Of a stretch of DNA of 64,000 nt, positions 20,101-30,336 are shown in pieces. The notes beneath the pieces were generated by a model. The model was given only the letters and a program-made list of their open reading frames with translations, made no database searches and was not told the DNA's origin. The translations under genes were made by a program, and so were the position numbers. The DNA comes from Trypanosoma brucei (lineage: Eukaryota): assembly GCA_000002445.1 (NCBI GenBank), contig CH464491.1, positions 160,001 to 224,000 of the forward strand. Direction: 5' to 3'. Within the stretch, counting starts at the first letter, position 1; each line of letters begins with the position of its first letter.

Positions 20101-20965
20101 CATGCGTACATGGGCTTTCGAGGCCGCGGGCAGCTCAGCGCATCTGTGTCGTCTCCAACGATAACATCGAAAAATATGTGATGGTGATCGCTATTGGGAG
20201 AATGAAGCGATGTCCACGTGTACACTGTGCAATTCCTTGACAGTGTCACATCAGGGGTGGACTCCCCGTGGTGGCGCGCGTTCCTGGTGCACTCACCAGT
20301 GTTGCAGACCAGAAACTGGTTGTCAATGCGCCACTGTGTGAGGGTTTCACCCTTGGTATTTGGTGGGCTCGCGCGATCCGATGCCAACGCGTGTGCGTTA
20401 GCGTCTGCACCGATGAGCTGTGAACTTTCAGTCGTCAGAAGCGTATCTAGGTCAGTTGCCGTGAAGGTGTGTTTTGGTGGGATGTATGCCGACGTGACAG
20501 TCAGCGCCGTTCCACGTGCAAGGTGAATTGTTGCATGCACTTGTTCAATGCGACCAATAACATGCATACCGGTCTCGACTGGTAGGTCCTCCCTCACTAG
20601 TATTGATACACCACCTCCTTTGCAGTTACGAGCTATTCCGTGATGTTGGTAGCCAGCAACGCTAAAGCAAGCCGCCTCTCCAGGCGTCATCCTTGTCTCG
20701 CTCAACAGACAAAAGGCGATCCGCTCATCAACAAGGGTTTTGTGGAGTGCTAATCTCTTTCCTTGAGATAGCCCGGCGCAGTTACACTGAATCCCGCGCA
20801 ACGACGGGCCGGGATTCTCTTCCACATCACTGGACAGCAGCATCTTAGTGCGGATGATACTGCTGATGGCACGCTGGCACGTGCCCAGGGACCGACAAAT
20901 GAAAAACGGTGTCCCAGCAAGACGCTGCTGATCCCTGTGCTACATGACGCCGTTGCCGGAGCAAA
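17132..20965 (-). mobile_element. ingi/L1Tc-clade non-LTR retrotransposon copy of about 3.8 kb. It is 5'-truncated just inside Pr77 and has no poly(A) of its own before the next element.
   Basis: The single ORF encodes 2A, AP endonuclease, reverse transcriptase (FADD) and RNase H (WTDGS). Its 5' region is near-identical to the short element at 16812-17040. The conserved Pr77 block is not seen at its 5' end. The 3' boundary is assigned at the point where the Pr77 of the next element starts. Confidence 0.8.
17535..20843 (-). CDS. Retrotransposon polyprotein of 1102 aa. It comprises an N-terminal 2A peptide (DVEENPGP), an apurinic/apyrimidinic endonuclease, a reverse transcriptase and RNase H.
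   Basis: The ATG at 20843 gives MLLSSDVEENPGPSLRGIQCNCAGLSQGKRLAL... RT motifs are present: ...DYEKAFDTV..., GVPQGTVLGPIMF and FFADDLTIL. The RNase H motif is ELWTDGSVSLGEKSGAAALL. There are no internal stops. An overlapping frame at 17512..17919 (-) holds Cys/His-rich remnants, possibly the C-terminal zinc-finger region out of frame. Confidence 0.9.
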   Translation of the reverse strand: MLLSSDVEENPGPSLRGIQCNCAGLSQGKRLALHKTLVDERIAFCLLSETRMTPGEAACFSVAGYQHHGIARNCKGGGVSILVREDLPVETGMHVIGRIEQVHATIHLARGTALTVTSAYIPPKHTFTATDLDTLLTTESSQLIGADANAHALASDRASPPNTKGETLTQWRIDNQFLVCNTGECTRNARHHGESTPDVTLSRNCTVYTWTSLHSPNSDHHHIFFDVIVGDDTDALSCPRPRKPMYAWLKADWRNFRLKVDEYCRKIGRKKNVNTLEQKLSSAIRIATKVSVPRGCRATSPHWTPELAKLDEEIAGCGPSHRGEKLVATRKQILDRITKKRWSTLYSRLAVSDRCSWHIFKKVYAPRPLTTPAVLVDNAAITDYRQAERFIKLYSSRARRHTDSHPPAPIKTIASEFSPITMAELRRSIKLLPSGSAAGPDCLYNEALQHLGRTALNVVLRLFNESLRTGVVPPAWKTGVIIPILKAGKKAEDLDSYRPVTLTSCLCKVMERIIAARLRDTVESQLTPQQSGFRPGCSTLEQLLHVRAALCRPTHQSRTGAVFVDYEKAFDTVDHDKIAREMHRMKVSPHIVKWCVSFLSNRTGRVRFKEKLSRSRTFERGVPQGTVLGPIMFIIVMNSLSQRLAEVPLLQHGFFADDLTILARHTERDVINHTLQCGLNVVLQWSKEYFMSVNVAKTKCTLFGCIERHSLTLQLDGKRIGADRTLKLLGVTFQSLQGMATHAAETRRKMDFRLLQIAAISASTWGPRRQVLRAFYLALVQAHTMHGIEVWYWDASKRSRDLLAAAQHKASRITAGIQHGTRKEDSLLEANLLPLKTATLVRSMKFMLMCESRGGCLRRSAEEVYHSKHPVRVLHSRIMRFYPHLHIEPREHPLETSTLHHSCRPIFHTQIKPVCADDPDDVKREASEKWIARHFARRGKEPPRREHYELWTDGSVSLGEKSGAAALLYRNNTLICAPKTGAGKLSCSYRAECIVLELGARSVLKNLSMREKTMRKLSIFNNSPSLPTALANGSLSAIEPPARELWRPVLKIESRKASIGLQFVFTSSGVTREEALGERWKRACASPSPCIVNGCCEISTRE

Positions 20966-21380
20966 GCACTGCTCCAAACAAGAGGAACAATGACGTTCCG
21001 TCTGTGCAGAAAGCGAGTTTATGGGCCTTGGGGCCGCGGTGGTGTGGGTGATGTTTTCGTTGAATGAAAAGGCCCCGCCGCCTCATTCGCGTTGCGCGGG
21101 AGGAAGATCAAACCACCTCAGATGTGAATGTTTTTGCTTACTGAAATAAAGCTGTGCTGTGCCAGTCTCGGCGTGTCCGGTGTTTGCGCACCTGAAACTC
21201 CCCTTTGTGGTGCAATATCTTCTTTAGGGACTGTTCGAGTATGTCGGGGTTTTCAGGGACAGCGCGAACCTACTGCGCGCGGTGGATTGGGCTCATTTTC
21301 CAAGGCGGAGTGGTGCCGGTTCTTGGATGCACGGCCGGTCCGCAGCTGCGAGTTCGTCAGCGCCAGCCCTTCGGACCTCA

Positions 21381-21390
21381 GGGGGGGGGG
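21381..21390 (+). repeat. G10 homopolymer inside the strand-switch region.
   Basis: cctca gggggggggg aagtt is read directly. Confidence 0.9.
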
Positions 21391-22049
21391 AAGTTAGGGC
21401 CTGTTTCCCTTTCTAAATCCCCTCAACTACTGTTGGTTAAAAGAATGCAGGGAGTAGAACCGGAGGGGGGAAGCGTCGGGTCCGCCCCGCGTGAAAGCGG
21501 CTGGGGCGTACGACAGGCTTCGCGAGCTGGGGGCGGTTGTGTTTCGCGTGGGTCCGTTATATTTACCCCTTCCGTTTGTATCTCCACTAAAGAGAAAGTG
21601 GTGTCCCGATCCACACTGTATTGCTTCGCCGTGTGCAATTGCTGTGCCGCTGGGGAGTGCCTTACGGCGTCGTGGGACCGACGTGGCTCGGGGACTTAAG
21701 GTGCGCCCTTAAACACCGTGGCTGCTGCCTGGTCATGTGTTTATGCTTTGCGATGTGAGGCATTGTGGGGTCGGGCCTTTATGCGGACCCCTGAGGCGTT
21801 AGTATGCTTGTTTCTCTCGATCCTCTCTGTTTGTGCGCGTATGTTTTCCCCCTCCATGTTTTAGGGAGGGCGGTGGATGGGGAGATGTCACTGAACAACG
21901 TAGCTGTTGATTATTGCTGCTATGTTATTTTATTTTCCTAAGGCCACATTGTGGTGCCTAAATACCTGGGTTATCGTCACGCGCATTTATCATTTTTCTA
22001 TTTAGCCTTTATAGCTGATCCTTCTTTCAAATACATTTGCTTGTTCTAG

Positions 22050-22054
<5 letters not shown>

Positions 22055-22110
<56 letters not shown>
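22055..22110. repeat. (TA)n microsatellite of about 28 units.
   Basis: tatata... is read directly from about 22055 to 22110. Confidence 0.95.
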
Positions 22111-22113
<3 letters not shown>

Positions 22114-24484
22114 TGCAAATGGCATCTTGGTGCACTTGTTCCGTTGCCGGGGTGATTATTTTCAGAGCGTATATACACCGCTTGTGGGTGATCGCGGTTT
22201 CAAGCCGGTTTGCTTTTGTTTTTGAGGACATGTATTGGGGGTGTTACCACTTTTTTGTTAATTGATATTGTGCACTTTTTTGTTTCGGTAAAAAGAAAAA
22301 AAATGACAGTGATATTATTTTTTTTTTTCGCTTACCTTCTATACATATATATATACTTGTCGGTGATACGTGTTTGTGTTTGGTGCTGATAATGCTTGCG
22401 CTGGGAGTTTCTTTTGTTGGTGTTTGTTTTCTCTGTAAATAAGATCGGCTTTCATTTCACTAATAGTCCTTGTAATATATCTTTTTTTTCTTTTTTTTCT
22501 AGGGGGCCATTAGTGCATGTAAGGAGCACTCTTAAGGGAACTTTTGTCAGCAGAATAATCAATGGTAAGTGTTGTACTTTGGCCATTGCGAGTGCGCTGG
22601 ACTTTGGGAGCTGGTACTGATACTTCTGTCTTGACGGATTCAAAAAAAAGACAAAAAACTTCACAACTTTTTCCGAAAGAAAGTGAAGTTTATCCTCTCA
22701 AATCAAGTGCGGATCTGTCGCTTTGCACACGCGCTGGTTGACAATAGATCGATGAGTGACATGTCTGATCACCCTGTGGTGCGGGTCTTTATTAATTGTC
22801 TTGCTCTTTATTGATTCATCTGTGCTTTGGCGACGTAGGCGGAGTAGAGGATTGCCAATTCCGTCCTTTGGAATGGTTTACCGTCTTATTTTATTTTGTT
22901 AACCCAGTTGTCTTATGTGTAATCCTTTATCGGCCGGTGCGAGCTGTGGGTGGGATGCCGATCGTTTTTTCTTCTGCAACGGCAGAGAGTAGTGCTGATG
23001 GATATCGGTAAAGGGTGTTTGCTGCGTTGGTGAAGTGAGTATGTCGATGGAAGGGTACGCATATAATTAATATATCTGGTGCTTTTTCTTCTTATTGAGT
23101 AGCTTTTGAGAGCTCGGGACGGTAAAGTTAGTTGCCGCATTAGGTGTATGTTGTTCTGGTTAATTTCTGTTCAGATCCTTACGGTAAGCACGAAACCATT
23201 ACACCTGGTATGCTTTAATCCGTTAATTCAGGCGGTTCCACATTTGGTTCAATCACTGAAATACAGCTGAATTTTTAAATTCTTGTTTTAAAATTACCTC
23301 ACTTAATAAAAGGAAGGAAATGACACATCAAAGTAATGGAAATGCTGCATTGTACACCTGTGGGTGAGCTGATGAAGTAATAAAATATGGACCCGCGCGT
23401 TAAAGCCGTTTGTTTCCATCAGCAATGCCCTCGTGTCGGTTGTTTTCCCTTTTTGTCTTTCCATTATTCCACTGTAAGTAGTTTGCTTGAATTACGGTTT
23501 GATAAAAGGAACTGATTCACCTGGGTGTCTGCCGTAGTCGGAAGGGTGGGCGGAAACGTTGCTGTTTTCTGTGAGGTAGTTAACTCTTTGCTGCTATAAT
23601 CTTTACAATACCGTTTTAAGATGTGTATGTTATTTTTAGGTGTAGTTTCCTGGCATTTTTGTGGACAGATGATGTTTGTCTACGTTTATGGAACCAGTAA
23701 GTAGGAAAAGATGTATGAATTAACAAAAGGTATTTGTGCATCAGTGACTAGCGTTTTTTCCTCGTGTACAGTAATGTCTCTCTGGTACAGTTATTAATTG
23801 TTAGAGCGCGGTGCTGTGATCTCGGGTGTAACAACTGAATCTTTTTTTTGTTTCCTTGCTGAAGTGTATGGCTCTTTCTGGAATAACACATATGTAATTA
23901 TGCCATTGCTTACAGTGGAAGTAGGGGTGGCTAACATAATGATTTGTCCTTTTGATAACACTGTATTGAAGGAAGAATTATCGCTCTTTTAGTTTTCCTG
24001 TTCTTTGTCTGTGGTCTTGTAAGTTGGTGATATTGTGTATTAAGCTTTCAATTTTTCTTTATAATTTGCAGTAGGCAGTTGTCTCTTGCGGTCATTTGGC
24101 CTACGGTATAGGATGTGTTAAGGTGTAGCTCACGTAAGTAAAGTTCATGATCGAATTCTTTTTGATTTTCGTTTTCACACATTTGATCCTTAAAGACTTA
24201 CACATGCCCTCTTTTTCATTATTATTATCTTGTTCATGAGTTGATGCGACATTGGTGGGTAGGGTTAGATGACCTTTTCTCTTTGACGCAATATGTCGCG
24301 GTTGTTACGTTCGCTTAGACACCAACGTCTCTTGTTTGTTATTTATGTATATTTGGGTACAACCGTTTTTCATTCGTTTCCCTTTGTCTTATAGTAACTT
24401 CATATATATATATTAATTTTAACGAGTTTGTATTTTTGTTTTCCTTACAATTATTGTAACCTACCATTCGGTTTATCACCCATA

Positions 24485-24549
24485 CTATTATTACCCTTAT
24501 TTTTCTTTCTTGATATAGACCTTGAGTTCTTCTGCTTTAAATCTACACA
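24485..24549 (+). promoter_or_regulatory. Pyrimidine-rich tract with a downstream AG. It is the probable trans-splicing acceptor region for eIF5A.
   Basis: The sequence ttattacccttatttttctttcttgatatagaccttgagttcttctgctttaaatctacacaATG fits the kinetoplastid poly(Y) plus AG splice-acceptor architecture immediately 5' of the first ATG. Confidence 0.4.
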
Positions 24550-25050
24550 ATGTCTGACGATGAGGGACAGTTTGCCGAAGGCGGAGCGCAGGTGGGCTCT
24601 CTGACGTATCCGATGCAGGCAGGCGCTCTGAAAAAGGGCGGCTACATTTGCATTAATGGACGTCCGTGCAAGGTAATCGATCTTTCAGTGTCAAAAACTG
24701 GAAAACACGGTCATGCAAAGGTGAGCATCGTTGCCCTTGACATTTTCACCGGAAACAAGATGGAAGATCAGGCCCCCTCAACTCACAACGTTGAGGTGCC
24801 CTTCGTGAAAACTGCAACGTACAGCGTACTGGACATTCAGGAAGATCGTGAAGACCCCAGCAAGCCAGCTCACCTTTCGCTCATGGACGATGAGGGTGAG
24901 ACTCGGGATAACCTGGACATGCCTCCCAACGCGGAACTCGCAGGGCAAATCAAGGAACAGTTTGATGCAGGAAAGGACGTTTTGGTCGTTGTTGTTTCTG
25001 CTATGGGAATTGACCAGATTCTCAGTTTCAAGAATGCAGCTGAGCGATAA
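24550..25050 (+). CDS. EIF5A: Eukaryotic translation initiation factor 5A (eIF5A, hypusine-containing).
   Basis: The ORF starts at an ATG and encodes 166 aa. It carries the hypusination loop [12 protein letters not shown] ([13 protein letters not shown]) and the overall eIF5A fold signature (GRPCKVIDL..., C-terminal OB region). Confidence 0.95.
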
Positions 25051-25393: not shown

Positions 25394-28348
25394 ATGACAA
25401 GCAAACATAGTGCTGTATTAACTATAACCGAAAAGGGTGATTGGAGAACTGCGAAAAATGGCGAGAAGGTATGGCGGTATATGGTGCAAACGGCACCGAC
25501 GATGAGAGCTCGCTGCAGAAAATGTTCACAACCTATTTTAAAAGGTGACCTGAAATGGGGAACTCCTATACGTCATTCCCATGGAGCGTATGGGTGGATT
25601 ACCGCCTGGCATCATGTGGGGTGTACGAGAATTGCTGAACGTAAGGGCTTTAGTGACATAGTACATGGAATAGACTTACTTCCACCTGAGAAACGGGCGC
25701 AGGTCGTTGCGGAGGTGACATCCGACTCGATGCCTGAGCATTTACTACCTTTGAATCCTGACGATTTAGTAAAAAAACCTCTTCTTCCCGAAACTGAAGC
25801 ACCAGCTGAGTTGCTAAGACCACTTCTTCGTTATCAAAAGGAGGGTCTTGGCTGGATGGTGTCACAGGAGTTGTCTCAAGTTAAGGGGGGAATATTGGCT
25901 GATGAAATGGGTATGGGTAAAACAATCCAGATGATCAGTCTTTTTCTCGCCCGTCGCCTCGTGGGACCTACACTGGTTGTTTGCCCAGTTAGTTCAATGC
26001 TCCAGTGGGAATCTGAGGTGAAAGACCATGTGGTGTCCGGTTCCCTTTCGGTGGTAGTGGTGAGCCGTACCAAAAATGTGAGAAGGGATGATATTCAAAA
26101 TGCTGATGTGGTTTTGACTACGTATCCGATGCTCGAACAGTCTTGGAGGGAGCTAGTCAACAAGAAAAGAGTTCCATGCCCTTACTGCCAACAGCTTTAT
26201 TTGCCGCGGCAGCTTGTTGTGCACAATCGGTATTTTTGCGGGCCTCATGCAAAGAAAACTTCTAAACAGGCGAAGCGTGAAAAACGACAAGGTGGCACTG
26301 GTTCTTCTCCCACTCGAAAAGTTCAAGCAAAAGAAACGATTATGAAGGGGCTTCGTACGTTGCGTGTCGATGTTGACGATAACGCGGAGGAAGGGGAGGA
26401 TTCTGTGTTCGAGGAAGGACCACGGGGTGTTGTTGGACCAATGGGCTTGTATCGTGAGCTCATGGTTGAGGCCGGGCGCAAAGTTAGGAGCCGTTGGGAC
26501 CCCGCGTACGTGGGAAGTGACAGCAGTGGGGATACCAACAATTCTACCACAGAAAGTTCCACCTCATCGGAACGGGATGACTCAGAGGAGGTGTTGTCGA
26601 AAGAGGAGGTGGCCGATGACAAGCTTAGCTCGTTCCGGTGCTTGCACTGCGGGTTTCAGTTGCTACGATACCCGTTTTGCCCTAAGATAGGGCAATGTCA
26701 CGTTCTCTCTGATTATATGAAACAAATAATTGAGACTGACGACGGTAGTGACGGCGTTGACCTATCTCAATCAGTTTTCCACTCGGTAACCTGGAGTCGG
26801 ATTGTTCTGGACGAAGCTCATAGAATAAAAGGTAGCAACACAAGTACGTCAAGGGCTGCCTTTGCCTTGGTAGGTGAGCACAGGTGGTGCCTCACGGGAA
26901 CCCCTCTACAAAATCGTGTAGGGGATGTGTACAGCCTGGTTCGTTTTCTACGGTTGGCGCCTTATGCAAGGTATTATTGTGGAACTGAGGGGTGCTCCTG
27001 CTCGTCCTTTTCTCATCCATTTTCTGGAAATGATTTACGACACTGTATATTTTGTGGTCATGGACCGGTCCAACATTATGCTTATTTTAATCGCCATATT
27101 TTAAATCCTATAATACGTTATGGTTACGTTGGCGACGGCAGGCGGGGAATGATGATGCTCTCTAATGAAATCCTCCAGAAGTGTATGCTGAGGAGGACGA
27201 AGGCCGAAAGAGCAAGCGACTTGCACTTGCCGCCAATGACCGTGGAAACGTTCCAAGTAAAGCTGACCGATGAGGAGAGAAGCTTCTATGAGTCGTTGTA
27301 CAAAAAAAGCACTGCCGCTTTTGATACCTTTGTTGAGAAAGGAACGGTGCTTCATAACTATGCCCACATCTTTCAACTTTTGAGTCGTTTGAGGCAGGCT
27401 TTGGATCACCCACTGATTGTCATTAATTCTATGAATGTCGGTGGCTCGTCGTGCTCGAAGGGGATGTGTGGAATTTGCACTGAGAGTTGTGGAGAGAACT
27501 CAGTACAGGTTGACCCTTGTAAGCATACCTTCCACCGGATTTGTCTTTCGCAATTTGTCGAAAGCCAACCTTTAAAGGAATATAATTGCCCTGTGTGTTA
27601 TGTGGCTATCAACATCGACCTGCGGAGTCTACACTCAGGGTGGGACGAAGACGGTGCCCAACCTGTTCTTCCTCCAGAGTTAGTTCACTCAGACAACGAA
27701 AGCGATGAAAACAACGTTGAGGAGGAAAGTAAAGGGAGGAAACTAGATGATTCTGCGGAGGGGAAATCCGCTCGAGCGAGATCGGTCAAGAAACGAGGCA
27801 TACTCTCCCGGATTGATTCATCAAAACCTCTTCGAGGGACGAAACTGGATGCCATAACAGAATACATTTGCAGCATTCCAGAGGAGGAAAAGGTAATTGT
27901 GTTTTCTCAATTTGGGGATACTCTGGACCTCATTCAGTTGTGGTTACAGAAGGTGAAAGTAAAGACGGTGAAACTTGTGGGGTCGCTCATGTTATCGCAG
28001 CGGCAAGCGGTTCTCAGGGCTTTCTTGCATGATAAGAGCGTTCGAGCCATCCTTATTTCTCTCAAGGCCGGTGGGGAGGGTTTAAATTTACAAATTGCTA
28101 ACCATGTTGTACTTGTTGATCCTTGGTGGAATCCCGCGGTTGAAATGCAGGCGGCGCAGCGAGCCCATCGTATTGGGCAGACGCGACCCGTTCGCGTGGT
28201 CCGTTTTGTCACTGAACGTTCTGTAGAGGAGCGCATGTTGGAGTTACAAGAAAAGAAGATGCTGGTTATTGAGGGGACTATCGATGGTAAGGTAAGTTCG
28301 CTGCAGAGTCTTAGCGAGGATGATCTTCAGTTTCTGTTCACGAGGTAG
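25394..28348 (+). CDS. SNF2-family DNA-dependent ATPase with an N-terminal PARP-type zinc finger and an embedded RING finger (RAD5/RAD16-like DNA repair protein).
   Basis: The ORF starts at an ATG and encodes 984 aa. The N-terminal zf-PARP-like module is WRYMVQTAPTMRARCRKCSQPILKGDLKWG...HSHGAYGWITAWHHVGC. The SNF2 N-terminal motifs are LLRYQKEGLGWMV, ILADEMGMGKTIQ and DEAH. The RING is CGICTESCGEN...PCKHTFHRICLSQ...CPVC. The helicase C-terminal motifs are LISLKAGGEGLNL and VDPWWNPAVEMQAAQRAHRIGQTRPV. Confidence 0.9.
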   Translation: MTSKHSAVLTITEKGDWRTAKNGEKVWRYMVQTAPTMRARCRKCSQPILKGDLKWGTPIRHSHGAYGWITAWHHVGCTRIAERKGFSDIVHGIDLLPPEKRAQVVAEVTSDSMPEHLLPLNPDDLVKKPLLPETEAPAELLRPLLRYQKEGLGWMVSQELSQVKGGILADEMGMGKTIQMISLFLARRLVGPTLVVCPVSSMLQWESEVKDHVVSGSLSVVVVSRTKNVRRDDIQNADVVLTTYPMLEQSWRELVNKKRVPCPYCQQLYLPRQLVVHNRYFCGPHAKKTSKQAKREKRQGGTGSSPTRKVQAKETIMKGLRTLRVDVDDNAEEGEDSVFEEGPRGVVGPMGLYRELMVEAGRKVRSRWDPAYVGSDSSGDTNNSTTESSTSSERDDSEEVLSKEEVADDKLSSFRCLHCGFQLLRYPFCPKIGQCHVLSDYMKQIIETDDGSDGVDLSQSVFHSVTWSRIVLDEAHRIKGSNTSTSRAAFALVGEHRWCLTGTPLQNRVGDVYSLVRFLRLAPYARYYCGTEGCSCSSFSHPFSGNDLRHCIFCGHGPVQHYAYFNRHILNPIIRYGYVGDGRRGMMMLSNEILQKCMLRRTKAERASDLHLPPMTVETFQVKLTDEERSFYESLYKKSTAAFDTFVEKGTVLHNYAHIFQLLSRLRQALDHPLIVINSMNVGGSSCSKGMCGICTESCGENSVQVDPCKHTFHRICLSQFVESQPLKEYNCPVCYVAINIDLRSLHSGWDEDGAQPVLPPELVHSDNESDENNVEEESKGRKLDDSAEGKSARARSVKKRGILSRIDSSKPLRGTKLDAITEYICSIPEEEKVIVFSQFGDTLDLIQLWLQKVKVKTVKLVGSLMLSQRQAVLRAFLHDKSVRAILISLKAGGEGLNLQIANHVVLVDPWWNPAVEMQAAQRAHRIGQTRPVRVVRFVTERSVEERMLELQEKKMLVIEGTIDGKVSSLQSLSEDDLQFLFTR

Positions 28349-28701: not shown

Positions 28702-29928
28702 ATGGGTGTTTCGCTACCAAAGCCTGTCATGACGCACCTGCGGGAGCGCTGCGGGAATGACATATTTCGTTGCGGCTCTAGTTGCGTTAACGGATACCGA
28801 GAAAGTATGGAAGATGCACATCTCGTCTACCTTCAACCTTCATGGGGGTTCTTCGGTGTTTTCGACGGTCATGTTAACGATAATTGTTCACAATTTTTGG
28901 AAGGTGCTTGGAGGTCTGCCCTTGAGAAGGAAAGCATGCCCATGTCGGATGACCGCATGAAGGAGCTTACTCTCGCCATTGACAAAGAATGGATGGACAA
29001 GGCCTGTGATGGTGGGAGTACGGGTACCTTTTTCGTTGGCATGAAAGAAAACAACACCGTTCATCTGCAGGTGGGGAACGTGGGTGACTCGCGTGTTTTG
29101 GTTTGCGTTGACGGTAAAGCCAGGGCTATGACGGAGGATCACAAGCCGAACAACGCAGATGAAAGACGCCGAATCGAGGAGTGCGGTGGTCGTGTGGAAA
29201 GCAACCGCGTGGATGGAAGTCTAGCTGTAAGTCGGGCCTTCGGAGATCGGGACTATAAGGCAAATCCAAGTGGTGGCCAGCTTTCGCAGAAGGTCATCGC
29301 TCTCCCAGATGTGACTCATGTGGACGTGACTTGGGATAGCAAAGACTTCGCCGTACTATGTTGTGATGGTGTTTTTGAAGGTCAATTTTCCAATGAAGAG
29401 GTTGTGGACTTTATTAAGGAACAGATGGAACAAACGGATGACCTCGGCCTCATAGCCGGAAGAGTTTGCGAAGAGGCTGTCAATCGCGGTAGTCGCGACA
29501 ATGTGTCCTGTGTCATCGTCCAGTTTAAGAGCGGCAAAGATTATGCAACAGCCGAGCACCTGGAGGTAGTTCCCGGACCGTTTTCCGTCCCCCGCAACGG
29601 TACTTTCCGCAAGGTGTACAGTCTCATGGCGGAGAAGGGGGGCATGACAACGCAAGAGGTGCTAGAAAAGCGTTACGACTATCTGGCATCCCTGGAGGAT
29701 AAGACAGCGCATATGGAAGAGTGGAAGGGCTTCAAGGATGGTCCACCGGCGAACCTGGAGGGAAAGGAGCGCACGGAATGGTTTTCTGAGCTCTTCGAGC
29801 AGTACGCAGCGGAAACTCCGTCAGACCCCAGGTCGGACAACATGGAGCGCATCCAAATGCTGCAGCAGCAGATAGGCATTCCGTTGCCCATGTTGCTTTC
29901 CATTATGTCGGGGCAGTCGGAAGAATGA
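28702..29928 (+). CDS. Protein phosphatase 2C (PPM family).
   Basis: The ORF starts at an ATG and encodes 408 aa. PP2C motifs are present: YRESMEDAH, FFGVFDGH, VGNVGDSRVLV, DHKPNNADERRRIEECGG, SLAVSRAFGD and CDGVFE. An N-terminal MGxS signal suggests possible myristoylation (MGVSLPK). Confidence 0.92.
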   Translation: MGVSLPKPVMTHLRERCGNDIFRCGSSCVNGYRESMEDAHLVYLQPSWGFFGVFDGHVNDNCSQFLEGAWRSALEKESMPMSDDRMKELTLAIDKEWMDKACDGGSTGTFFVGMKENNTVHLQVGNVGDSRVLVCVDGKARAMTEDHKPNNADERRRIEECGGRVESNRVDGSLAVSRAFGDRDYKANPSGGQLSQKVIALPDVTHVDVTWDSKDFAVLCCDGVFEGQFSNEEVVDFIKEQMEQTDDLGLIAGRVCEEAVNRGSRDNVSCVIVQFKSGKDYATAEHLEVVPGPFSVPRNGTFRKVYSLMAEKGGMTTQEVLEKRYDYLASLEDKTAHMEEWKGFKDGPPANLEGKERTEWFSELFEQYAAETPSDPRSDNMERIQMLQQQIGIPLPMLLSIMSGQSEE

Positions 29929-29938
29929 GTCCACATGT

Positions 29939-29978
29939 GTGTCTGTGCGTGTGCGTGTGCGTGTGCGTGTGCGTGTGT
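29939..29978. repeat. (GTGTGC)n/(GT)n-type microsatellite immediately after the PP2C stop.
   Basis: gtgtgtctgtgcgtgtgcgtgtgcgtgtgcgtgtgcgtgtgtg is read directly. Confidence 0.9.
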
Positions 29979-30336
29979 GCTTGTATTTCGTGCGACGAAG
30001 GGGGGACTTGGTGGAGGTTACCAGGGTTTATCTATGAAAATGGCACCCGTCGGGAAGTCGTCTAATCGCTGTTGGAGGTATGCAGAGGCAAACAACAAGA
30101 TGATTTCGTTTATATCCACAGGTGTTGCTAGTTGTTTGACCACACGAAGTACCCGGGGGTGTAGCAGCTCCAACTTAATCAACAGCCGAAAATGTGACTC
30201 GACATATTTGTGCGGCCAAGGCCAGTGTGCTTGTATGCTTGCCTTCTGCCATACTTGGTCGTCTCGGTATGCCCGGTTGTATGTATTTAGGCAAAGGTCA
30301 ACTTTATATATGTACGTTTCTCGTAAGGGCGCCTCT

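What the first reader, a model, noticed from the sequence alone, without database searches (positions are those of the whole stretch)
25394..28348. SNF2/RING ATPase with an N-terminal PARP-type zinc finger and an acidic Ser-rich insert between the helicase lobes
RAD5/RAD16-type ATPases usually carry HIRAN or no N-terminal DNA-binding module. Here the N-terminus (about residues 20-100: CRKCSQPILKGDLKWG...HHVGC) resembles the nick-sensing zf-PARP finger, which suggests direct recruitment to DNA breaks. A low-complexity acidic and serine-rich segment of about 150 aa (about 26.25-26.65 kb, ...SSGDTNNSTTESSTSSERDDSEEV...) is inserted between the SNF2 N-terminal motifs and the RING. It may be a phospho-regulated linker.
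Basis: partly seen in the sequence, partly recalled or inferred. Interest (0 to 1): 0.5.

Follow-up and report, generated by a model that had tools for sequence, protein, structure and literature searches.

The report
Trypanosome RAD16 with PARP-type zinc finger
This is the annotated Trypanosoma brucei gene Tb927.11.750, a RAD16-type DNA-repair ATPase and ubiquitin ligase that really does carry a PARP-like DNA-break-sensing zinc finger at its start, but this domain combination is already catalogued, is common in protists, and has not been studied experimentally.

Summary
ORF 25394-28348 (+) encodes a 984-aa protein with a genuine N-terminal zf-PARP finger: Pfam 43.7 bits against a cut-off of 39.3, ligands C41/C44/H74/C77, and an AlphaFold model that matches only PARP1 and DNA ligase III fingers. 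The protein is Tb927.11.750 (Q387H5), an orthologue of yeast RAD16 (460 bits, against 194 for RAD5), with intact ATPase motifs and a RING-H2.

It lies inside ATPase lobe 1, between TTY-242 and DEAH-473, not between the lobes. It is a composite of about 205 aa: an invariant C2HC zinc finger, a basic stretch, two short conserved helices, a 38-aa acidic Ser/Thr-rich disordered tract, and a kinetoplastid-specific CCCH knuckle.

The fusion is not rare. It occurs in kinetoplastids, prasinophyte algae, alveolates, a pelagophyte and a haptophyte. Land-plant and red-algal RAD16 keep only the C2HC insert, and yeasts have neither module.

The architecture of this exact gene is already in print (2015), and a 2017 screen labelled it "rad16-like?". 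In that screen, knockdown reads dropped about 3-fold under MMS, which fits a damage-response role. Break sensing itself is inferred, not shown.

The parts
25394..28348 (+). Complete ORF of Tb927.11.750 (984 aa plus stop), a RAD16-type SNF2 ATPase / RING-H2 E3. It is identical to XP_828168.1 / Q387H5_TRYB2.
   Evidence: Neighbours eIF5A (Tb927.11.740) and PP2C (Tb927.11.760) match the literature.
25490..25708 (+). zf-PARP zinc finger (residues 33-105). Ligands are C41, C44, H74 and C77. R38 aligns with PARP1 R18, K54 with R34, and Y66 with L161 of Zn2.
   Evidence: Pfam 43.7 bits against a cut-off of 39.3. PDB sequence hits are only PARP1/Lig3 fingers. AF2 pLDDT 95 and Foldseek agree. The four ligands are intact in 95 of 110 homologues.
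25814..26149 (+). SNF2 lobe 1, first part (residues 141-252): motif I GMGKT at 173-177, motif Ia, and the TTY motif at 242.
26165..26263 (+). C2HC zinc finger (residues 258-290): C262-x2-C265-x11-H277-x4-C282, followed by the basic stretch KKTSKQAKREKRQ. This is the start of the lobe-1 insertion.
   Evidence: Invariant in 110 of 110 homologues. 29 of 40 family copies hit PF13913 zf-C2HC_2, best E 5.6e-6. AF2 gives a beta-hairpin plus helix with pLDDT 82-94.
26291..26509 (+). Mostly disordered part of the insertion (residues 300-372), with two short conserved helices: ETIMKGLRTL at 313-322 and PMGLYRELMVE at 349-359.
   Evidence: pLDDT below 50 at 300-311 and 322-348. Motifs conserved across lineages.
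26510..26623 (+). Acidic Ser/Thr-rich low-complexity tract (residues 373-410): 32% D/E, 37% S/T, with 5 CK2-type S/T-x-x-D/E sites.
   Evidence: pLDDT below 50 at 368-398. Composition is conserved but sequence is not: 74 of 110 homologues have a 30-aa window with at least 60% S/T/D/E.
26624..26713 (+). Second zinc knuckle (residues 411-440): C416-x2-C419-x9-C429-x6-H436. It is specific to kinetoplastid-type sequences.
   Evidence: Conserved in roughly the 39 closest homologues only. AF2 pLDDT 87-91.
26765..27463 (+). SNF2 lobe 1, second part, plus helical region (residues 458-690): motif II DEAH at 473-476 and motif III TGTP at 501. It includes the RAD16-type Cys/His cluster C529, C534, C536, C551, C554, H556, H561 (nt 26972-27076).
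   Evidence: The cluster is invariant, yeast RAD16 included.
27464..27604 (+). RING-H2 finger (residues 691-737): C692, C695, C709, H711, H714, C717, C732, C735.
   Evidence: Pfam zf-RING_2 31.3 bits against a cut-off of 27.3. Ligands are invariant. H714 is present in 109 of 110 homologues, where yeast has Cys.
27614..27829 (+). Second acidic, Ser-rich disordered linker (residues 741-812). This is the segment that truly lies between the RING/lobe 1 and lobe 2.
   Evidence: D/E 22%, S 15%. pLDDT below 50 at 751-794. Alignment occupancy 0.44-0.47.
27830..28345 (+). SNF2 lobe 2 / Helicase_C (residues 813-984): motifs IV-VI, including QAAQRAHRIGQ at 919-929, and the C-terminal DLQFLF shared with yeast RAD16.

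Best explanation
The ORF is Tb927.11.750, the Trypanosoma brucei orthologue of yeast RAD16/rhp16. It is a Rad5/16-like SNF2 DNA translocase with a RING-H2 ubiquitin-ligase finger inserted between its two ATPase lobes.

Compared with yeast RAD16 it has two extra modules, both widespread outside fungi:
1. An N-terminal PARP-type zinc finger.
2. An insertion of about 205 aa inside lobe 1. It opens with an invariant C2HC zinc finger and also contains a disordered acidic Ser/Thr-rich tract and a kinetoplastid-specific CCCH knuckle.

Proposed mechanism (inferred): the zf-PARP finger binds DNA discontinuities such as nicks, gaps or ends, for example base-excision-repair intermediates after alkylation. 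It would do so through its phosphate-grip arginine and a hydrophobic loop. This would tether the enzyme at the lesion. The ATPase then translocates on DNA or applies torsion to open local chromatin or displace proteins, and the RING-H2 recruits an E2 to ubiquitylate nearby repair or chromatin substrates, as the Rad7-Rad16 complex does in yeast global-genome excision repair (established knowledge). The lobe-1 insertion probably acts as a regulatory or interaction platform whose ligand is unknown.

Shown here: domain identity, fold, orthology, motif integrity and distribution. Shown in the literature at screen level: loss of RNAi reads under MMS. Inferred: break binding, substrates, and the role of the insertion.
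For: - zf-PARP: Pfam score above its cut-off. PDB sequence hits are exclusively PARP1/Lig3 fingers. An AF2 model with pLDDT 95 has Foldseek matches only to zf-PARP structures, with rmsd about 2 A to DNA-bound Zn1.
- DNA-contact positions: R38 aligns with PARP1 R18 and is Arg in 73 of 98 occupied columns. Position 54 (PARP1 R34) is always Arg or Lys. The roles of R18/R122 and F44/L161 come from PMC8150716.
- RAD16 orthology: 38% identity and a colinear alignment with authentic yeast RAD16, 460 bits by phmmer against 194 for RAD5. The Cys/His cluster between motifs III and IV is shared and invariant.
- Catalytic competence: all SF2 motifs and RING ligands are intact.
[quoted passage not shown] This is lower than XPC (0.419). 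The authors' own comment was 'rad16/rhp16?'.
- The conventional T. brucei PARP (TbPARP) has a PARP2/3-like organisation without zinc fingers.
- Conservation of the fusion across at least five eukaryotic lineages argues that it is functional.
Against: - No biochemical data on DNA binding exist for this or any RAD16-type zf-PARP.
- The base-stacking position is variable in the family (Y/N/H/F/E at position 66; W/A/Y at position 68). Break specificity could therefore differ from that of PARP1.
- The protein has one finger, whereas PARP1 uses two cooperating fingers at single-strand breaks.
- The MMS phenotype is from a pooled screen and has not been validated individually.
- The same gene was also recovered in a screen for stumpy-formation (quorum-sensing) factors, which a pure repair role does not explain.
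- Whether a Rad7-like partner exists in trypanosomes was not tested.
Confidence: 0.6

Rival explanations
1. The protein is a RAD16 orthologue, but its zf-PARP finger is a general or lesion-proximal DNA anchor for global-genome excision repair. In that case it would take over the DNA-binding role that Rad7/Abf1 provide in yeast, rather than act as a specific strand-break sensor.
For: - RAD16 orthology is strong.
- In the MMS screen, global-NER factors such as XPC also score low.
- The phosphate-grip residues, which dominate DNA affinity in PARP1, are conserved, while the base-stacking loop that reads the break is variable.
- There is only one finger.
Against: - Every characterised zf-PARP finger (PARP1 Zn1/Zn2, Lig3) recognises DNA discontinuities. 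This is established knowledge, and the structures were listed.
- The predicted fold superposes on DNA-end-bound Zn1 at about 2 A.
Confidence: 0.22
2. The zf-PARP finger is mainly an intramolecular regulatory or protein-interaction module, for example one that gates the ATPase or RING. DNA targeting would then come from the ATPase core and other elements such as the C2HC finger and the basic stretch.
For: - In PARP1, Zn1 also makes inter-domain contacts that are needed for activation (D45).
- The full-length AF2 model places the finger confidently (pLDDT about 90+) next to the core.
- The lobe-1 insertion supplies other candidate DNA-binding elements.
Against: - The DNA-contact basic residues are conserved.
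- No known zf-PARP finger lacks DNA binding (established knowledge).
- I could not inspect the model's coordinates for contacts.
Confidence: 0.08
3. The gene's main cellular role in T. brucei is developmental or transcriptional, acting in quorum-sensing-driven stumpy formation through ubiquitylation or chromatin remodelling, rather than in DNA repair.
For: [quoted passage not shown] SNF2 ATPases are often chromatin remodellers.
Against: - According to the review, the hit was not validated individually.
- RAD16 orthology, the zf-PARP finger and the MMS RIT-seq depletion all point to damage response.
- The two roles are not mutually exclusive.
Confidence: 0.08

Closest known systems
Saccharomyces cerevisiae RAD16 (YBR114W) / S. 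pombe rhp16: the Rad7-Rad16 global-genome NER ATPase and E3
   Same: - Colinear alignment at 38% identity over the ATPase core.
- The RING is inserted at the same place between the lobes.
- The Cys/His cluster between motifs III and IV is shared and invariant, and so is the C-terminal DLQFLF.
- All SF2 motifs are present.
   Different: - Yeast has no zf-PARP: none of 120 Saccharomycotina RAD16 carry PF00645. It has an acidic/basic low-complexity N-terminus instead.
- Yeast has only about 14 residues where T. brucei has the 205-aa lobe-1 insertion with its C2HC and CCCH knuckles.
- The yeast RING is C3HC4, and here it is C3H2C3.
PARP1 zinc fingers Zn1/Zn2 and the DNA ligase III zinc finger (Pfam PF00645)
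   Same: - Same HMM family, and the same C-x2-C-x(28-30)-H-x2-C ligand set.
- Same predicted fold: TM-score normalised to the target up to 0.81, rmsd 1.8-2.0 A.
- Conserved phosphate-grip Arg and conserved W-x-H-x2-C.
   Different: - There is a single copy, fused to an SNF2/RING enzyme instead of a PARP catalytic or ligase domain.
- The base-stacking loop residues differ and vary within the family.
- No DNA-binding data exist.
K. lactis / S. cerevisiae RAD5 (PDB 6L8N) and human HLTF/SHPRH
   Same: Same Rad5/16-like SNF2 group with an embedded RING. RAD5 is the closest solved structure. SHPRH likewise carries accessory domains inserted in lobe 1 (established knowledge).
   Different: No HIRAN domain was detected. 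The sequence is far closer to RAD16 (460 against 194 bits). The RAD16-type Cys/His cluster is present.
Land-plant and red-algal RAD16 (e.g. Medicago truncatula RAD16; Porphyridium 'rhp16')
   Same: Same RAD16 core and the same C2HC-bearing lobe-1 insertion.
   Different: No zf-PARP by my family HMM or by Pfam at E<=0.01.

Membership tests
zf-PARP (Pfam PF00645) | Scores at or above the Pfam gathering threshold | tested here: met
   43.7 bits against 39.3 on the whole protein; 47.7 bits on the N-terminal 140 aa
zf-PARP (Pfam PF00645) | Zinc ligands C-x2-C-x(28-30)-H-x2-C | tested here: met
   C41-x2-C44-x29-H74-x2-C77. Intact in 95 of 110 homologues; the others are N-terminally truncated models.
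zf-PARP (Pfam PF00645) | zf-PARP three-dimensional fold | tested here: met
   The AF2 model (pLDDT 95.1) gives 28 Foldseek hits at E<=1e-3, all PARP1 Zn1/Zn2 or Lig3. The next hit is at E 0.18. This is a predicted structure, not an experimental one.
zf-PARP (Pfam PF00645) | DNA-contact residues: phosphate-backbone-grip Arg and a hydrophobic base-stacking loop | tested here: inconclusive
   The grip is conserved: R38 aligns with R18, and position 54 is always R or K. The stacking position is aromatic in T. brucei (Y66, W68) but variable in the family.
zf-PARP (Pfam PF00645) | Binds DNA nicks, gaps or ends | not testable with these tools
   Needs EMSA or fluorescence polarisation with the recombinant domain
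SNF2-family ATPase | Helicase motifs I, Ia, II (DEAH), III, IV, V, VI intact | tested here: met
   GMGKT 173, DEAH 473, TGTP 501, QAAQRAHRIGQ 919-929. Pfam SNF2-rel_dom E 4e-60 and Helicase_C E 1e-21.
Rad5/16-like SNF2 group | RING finger embedded between ATPase lobe 1 and lobe 2 | tested here: met
   RING-H2 at 691-737, between motif III (501) and motif IV (about 833)
RAD16 subfamily | Closer to authentic RAD16 than to other Rad5/16-like members | tested here: met
   phmmer 460.5 bits to S. cerevisiae RAD16 (P0121) against 194.1 bits to RAD5 6L8N. No full phylogeny was made.
RAD16 subfamily | Cys/His cluster between motifs III and IV (Y-x-C-x4-C-x-C ... C-x2-C-x-H ... H) | tested here: met
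   C529, C534, C536, C551, C554, H556, H561 are invariant in protist and yeast RAD16. A cluster HMM hits 75 of 89 representatives and all four yeast controls.
RAD16 subfamily | Works with a Rad7-like partner in global-genome NER | not tested
   No partner search was made. MMS RIT-seq depletion (0.315) is compatible with this but not specific to it.
RAD5 / HLTF | N-terminal HIRAN domain | tested here: not met
   No HIRAN hit even at E<=10. The N-terminus is zf-PARP.
zf-C2HC_2 (Pfam PF13913) | HMM match and a C-x2-C-x11-H-x4-C finger | tested here: inconclusive
   The T. brucei copy gives no PF13913 hit (best: zf-Di19, E 0.11). However, 29 of 40 orthologous copies hit PF13913 (best E 5.6e-6), the ligands are invariant in 110 of 110, and AF2 gives a beta-beta-alpha unit.
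UBZ4-type ubiquitin-binding zinc finger | CCHC finger with the conserved acidic helix residue needed for ubiquitin binding | tested here: inconclusive
   Only 3 of 40 copies weakly hit zf_UBZ (E 0.0085). The family consensus shows no conserved acidic residue in the helix. The requirement itself is recalled from memory.

The most novel reading that the evidence does not exclude
The ancestral eukaryotic RAD16 was a strand-break-sensing translocase and ubiquitin ligase, with a zf-PARP finger plus a C2HC finger in lobe 1. The well-studied fungal Rad16 would then be a stripped-down derivative. In kinetoplastids the conventional PARP (TbPARP) has no zinc fingers, so Tb927.11.750 would be a PARP-independent nick sensor that couples detection of single-strand breaks directly to chromatin remodelling and ubiquitylation. 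The same protein might also link genome-damage sensing to the quiescence/stumpy differentiation decision.
Probability: 0.25. Interest if true: 0.55.

Novelty: already known. Interest (0 to 1): 0.3.

Why it matters
If the finger does sense breaks, RAD16-type enzymes in most protist lineages would join PARP1 and DNA ligase III as direct nick or end readers. The textbook yeast Rad7-Rad16 picture would then describe a reduced form of the family.

For trypanosomes this would give a concrete, testable candidate for how alkylation or single-strand-break damage is detected in an organism whose conventional PARP lacks zinc fingers. It would also offer a possible handle on the unexplained recovery of this gene in the quorum-sensing screen.

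As it stands, this is a correct but already catalogued domain annotation of an uncharacterised gene.

Tried and rejected
- Pfam on the T. brucei insertion alone gave nothing meaningful (CpXC E 0.47, DUF7479 E 2.9). The C2HC identity emerged only when 40 orthologous copies were scanned.
- The UBZ4 (ubiquitin-binding) reading of the C2HC finger was considered. Support is weak (3 of 40 weak hits, no conserved acidic helix residue), so it stays a lead only.
- No HIRAN domain was found, so RAD5 membership is rejected.
- Literature: 'PARP-type zinc finger'+'Rad16' and 'PARP-type'+'SNF2'+'RING' returned no papers. 'RAD16'+'Trypanosoma brucei'+'nucleotide excision repair' returned one irrelevant paper.
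- Phosphorylation: the supplements of the Benz & Urbaniak 2019 phosphoproteome held no entry for Tb927.11.750. The files may be truncated, so this is not evidence of absence.
- The original quorum-sensing screen paper (Mony et al., Nature) is not in the library.
- A 143-sequence alignment was too large to transfer to Python. It was redone in two batches.
- The third homologue search, the third fold search and the viral, metagenome and genome locus scans were not used, because they would not bear on a eukaryotic nuclear gene.
Full report

The window holds an uninterrupted ORF at 25394..28348 on the + strand, encoding 984 aa.

- SNF2-rel_dom: E 4e-60, broken into three stretches.
- Helicase_C: residues 817-928.
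- zf-RING_2: residues 691-735, 31.3 bits against a cut-off of 27.3.
- zf-PARP PF00645: residues 33-105, 43.7 bits against a cut-off of 39.3, E 4.9e-11. On the N-terminal 140 residues alone it scores 47.7 bits.

The zinc ligands are C41-x2-C44-x29-H74-x2-C77, which is the zf-PARP spacing. A sequence search of the PDB with the N-terminus returns only PARP1 Zn1/Zn2, the Arabidopsis PARP finger and the DNA ligase III finger.

An AlphaFold2 model of residues 12-125, built on 36 orthologous N-termini, has mean pLDDT 95.1 and pTM 0.84. Foldseek against the PDB finds 28 matches at E<=1e-3. All are PARP1 Zn1/Zn2 or the Lig3 finger, with rmsd 1.8-2.0 A over 84-87 residues against DNA-bound Zn1. The next hit is unrelated, at E 0.18.

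**2. What is the gene?**

The protein is identical to XP_828168.1 / UniProt Q387H5, 'DNA repair protein, putative', of T. brucei brucei TREU927. Its neighbours in the window are eIF5A (24550-25050) and a PP2C (28702-29928). These match Tb927.11.740 (EIF5A; PMC9585242) and Tb927.11.760 (putative phosphatase 2C; PMC10520940). The gene is therefore Tb927.11.750.

All SF2 motifs are intact: GMGKT 173, DEAH 473, TGTP 501 and QAAQRAHRIGQ 919-929. The RING has a full C3H2C3 ligand set.

**3. RAD16, not RAD5.**

I searched with my recalled yeast Rad16 sequence. It matched a database entry at 100% identity over 100% of its length, and that entry's close neighbours are named Rad16p/YBR114W.

- BLASTP of the window protein against this authentic RAD16 gives 374 + 106 bits, with 38% identity over 538 aa, and the alignment is colinear.
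- On one scale (phmmer), RAD16 scores 460.5 bits and RAD5 (6L8N) scores 194.1 bits.
- A Cys/His cluster between motifs III and IV (C529, C534, C536, C551, C554, H556, H561) is invariant in the protist proteins and in yeast RAD16.
- No HIRAN domain is present.
- No RAD16 structure is in the PDB copy, so RAD5 is the nearest solved structure.

**4.

The extra sequence lies between TTY (242) and motif II DEAH (473). That places it inside lobe 1, not between the lobes. Yeast RAD16 has about 14 residues at this site, where T. brucei has residues 253-457.

The insertion is a composite of five elements:
1. A C-x2-C-x11-H-x4-C finger (C262, C265, H277, C282). It is invariant in all 110 aligned homologues. 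The T. brucei copy does not itself score in Pfam, but 29 of 40 orthologous copies hit PF13913 zf-C2HC_2 (best E 5.6e-6). The full-length AF2 model (pLDDT 81.7, pTM 0.78) folds it confidently as a beta-hairpin plus helix.
2. A basic stretch, KKTSKQAKREKRQ.
3. Two short conserved helices (313-322 and 349-359) within segments of pLDDT below 50.
4. The acidic Ser/Thr-rich tract. It is only 38 aa long (373-410; 32% D/E, 37% S/T) and is predicted to be disordered.
5. A second knuckle, C416-x2-C419-x9-C429-x6-H436. It is confidently modelled and confined to kinetoplastid-type sequences.

The acidic/Ser character is conserved in composition but not in sequence: 74 of 110 homologues have a 30-aa window with at least 60% S/T/D/E. 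CK2-type consensus sites are about six times denser in the tract than elsewhere. Actual phosphorylation could not be checked.

A different acidic, Ser-rich disordered segment (residues 741-812) does lie between the RING and lobe 2.

**5. How widespread is the fusion?**

Among the 120 closest homologues, the precomputed Pfam annotation shows PF00645 together with SNF2, RING and Helicase_C in the following groups:
- Kinetoplastids: all Trypanosoma, Leishmania, Phytomonas and Leptomonas entries, and Perkinsela.
- Green algae: Micromonas and Chloropicon.
- Alveolates: Vitrella and Symbiodinium/Durusdinium.
- A pelagophyte, Aureococcus, and a haptophyte, Diacronema.

The four zinc ligands are intact in 95 of 110 aligned sequences, and the rest are N-terminally truncated gene models.

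For a less redundant sample I ran an exhaustive phmmer search of 1.84 billion representatives clustered at 50% identity. I then took a census using HMMs built from my own alignments. Of the 89 representatives with a complete N-terminus and both ATPase motifs:

| Architecture | Representatives |
|---|---|
| zf-PARP + C2HC + RAD16 Cys/His cluster | 35 |
| C2HC + RAD16 cluster, no zf-PARP | 15 |
| RAD16 cluster only (yeast-like; Walker A to DEAH about 100-140 aa) | 22 |
| zf-PARP + RAD16 cluster, no C2HC | 3 |
| Other subfamilies | 14 |

The list is ranked by similarity to a zf-PARP-bearing query, so the proportions are biased towards that form.

Named members of the C2HC-only type are Medicago and Liquidambar RAD16, Closterium, Tetraselmis and Porphyridium 'rhp16'. 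Pfam confirms that these, and yeast RAD16, have no PF00645 at E<=0.01. None of 120 Saccharomycotina RAD16 has it either.

The simplest reading, which is an inference, is that the composite architecture is old, with zf-PARP lost in land plants and red algae and both modules lost in yeasts. No phylogeny was made to test this.

**6. What is already known?**

[quoted passage not shown] - Stortz et al. 2017 (PMC5542689, supplementary tables) annotate the gene 'rad16/rhp16?' and 'rad16-like?'.
- A T. cruzi survey of RING E3s and a Toxoplasma survey of SNF2 ATPases also list zf-PARP among the co-occurring domains.
- One Trypanosoma orthologue is already named for these Pfam domains in NCBI.

The architecture of this exact gene is therefore in print and in public annotation. 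I found no paper that discusses the fusion, the C2HC insertion or their distribution.

**7. Functional evidence and mechanism.**

In the MMS RIT-seq screen the gene is classed 'Tns, MMSd'. RNAi alone caused no significant read loss, and the MMS+/MMS- ratio was 0.315. That is:
- within the set of 274 genes with a ratio of 0.5 or less;
- third lowest in the authors' DNA-repair sheet;
- below XPC (0.419);
- one of three uncharacterised DNA helicases with ratios below 0.5.

MMS lesions are processed through single-strand-break intermediates (the same paper). In PARP1 the fingers contact DNA through a phosphate-backbone grip (R18/R122), which dominates affinity, and a base-stacking loop (F44/L161/I164) (PMC8150716). 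In the alignments, R38 matches R18 and is Arg in 73 of 98 occupied columns. Position 54 (PARP1 R34) is always Arg or Lys. Y66 aligns with L161, but that position varies in the family. The conventional T. brucei PARP (TbPARP) has a PARP2/3-like layout without zinc fingers (PMC5473844), although Stortz et al. also mention a second, uncharacterised PARP-like gene.

I therefore favour this model: the finger tethers the enzyme to nicks, gaps or ends; the SNF2 motor remodels or displaces local chromatin or proteins; and the RING-H2 ubiquitylates nearby substrates, by analogy with yeast Rad7-Rad16 (established knowledge). Domain identity, orthology and motif integrity are shown here. The MMS phenotype is screen-level evidence. 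Break binding, the substrates and the role of the insertion are inferred.

The rivals are a non-specific DNA anchor for global-genome NER, an intramolecular regulatory module, and a primarily developmental role.

**8. Verdict.**

The thing is a RAD16 orthologue whose domain make-up is already catalogued and is common in protists, so its novelty is low. What remains open, and modestly interesting, is the biochemistry of a RAD16-linked PARP-type finger and of the invariant C2HC finger in lobe 1.

Noticed in passing
window 20900-24500: All ORFs of at least 200 aa up to 20843 are on the - strand, and all from 24550 onward are on the + strand. GC falls to 0.38 at 22-24 kb and the cumulative GC skew reaches its minimum nearby. 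This looks like a divergent strand-switch region (a kinetoplastid Pol II transcription start zone). eIF5A and Tb927.11.750 would be the first two genes of the + polycistron.
   Followed up: no
window 26624-26713 (residues 411-440): A second zinc knuckle, C-x2-C-x9-C-x6-H (FRCxxCxFQxLRYPFCPKTGQxH). It is confidently modelled by AF2 and conserved only in kinetoplastid-type RAD16 proteins. It has no Pfam match, and T. brucei uniquely has an extra Cys at position 435.
   Followed up: partly
window 27614-27829 (residues 741-812): A second acidic, Ser-rich segment predicted to be disordered, lying between the RING and ATPase lobe 2. It is poorly conserved and variable in length.
   Followed up: partly
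window 27464-27604 (RING, residue 714): The RING is the H2 type (C3H2C3) in 109 of 110 protist homologues, whereas yeast RAD16 has Cys at that ligand position (C3HC4). This might imply a different E2 preference.
   Followed up: partly
window 25394-28348 (whole gene): The same gene appears in two unrelated genome-wide RNAi screens: as 'Hyp 9' among stumpy-formation (quorum-sensing) hits (PMC4403954), and as an MMS-sensitivity hit with ratio 0.315 (PMC5542689). No explanation links the two.
   Followed up: partly
window 29935-29980: A (CA)n/(TG)n dinucleotide microsatellite immediately downstream of the PP2C gene. It is visible as the spurious ORF beginning MCVCACACACACACV.
   Followed up: no
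related proteins P0057 (Vitrella), P0082/P0090/P0097 (dinoflagellate-type), P0046-P0048: In alveolate and other algal RAD16 homologues, the same lobe-1 insertion site expands to as much as 747 aa. By precomputed Pfam it carries SAP (PF02037) and UBA (PF00627) domains or an extra RING (PF13920). The site appears to be a hotspot for accessory modules.
   Followed up: no
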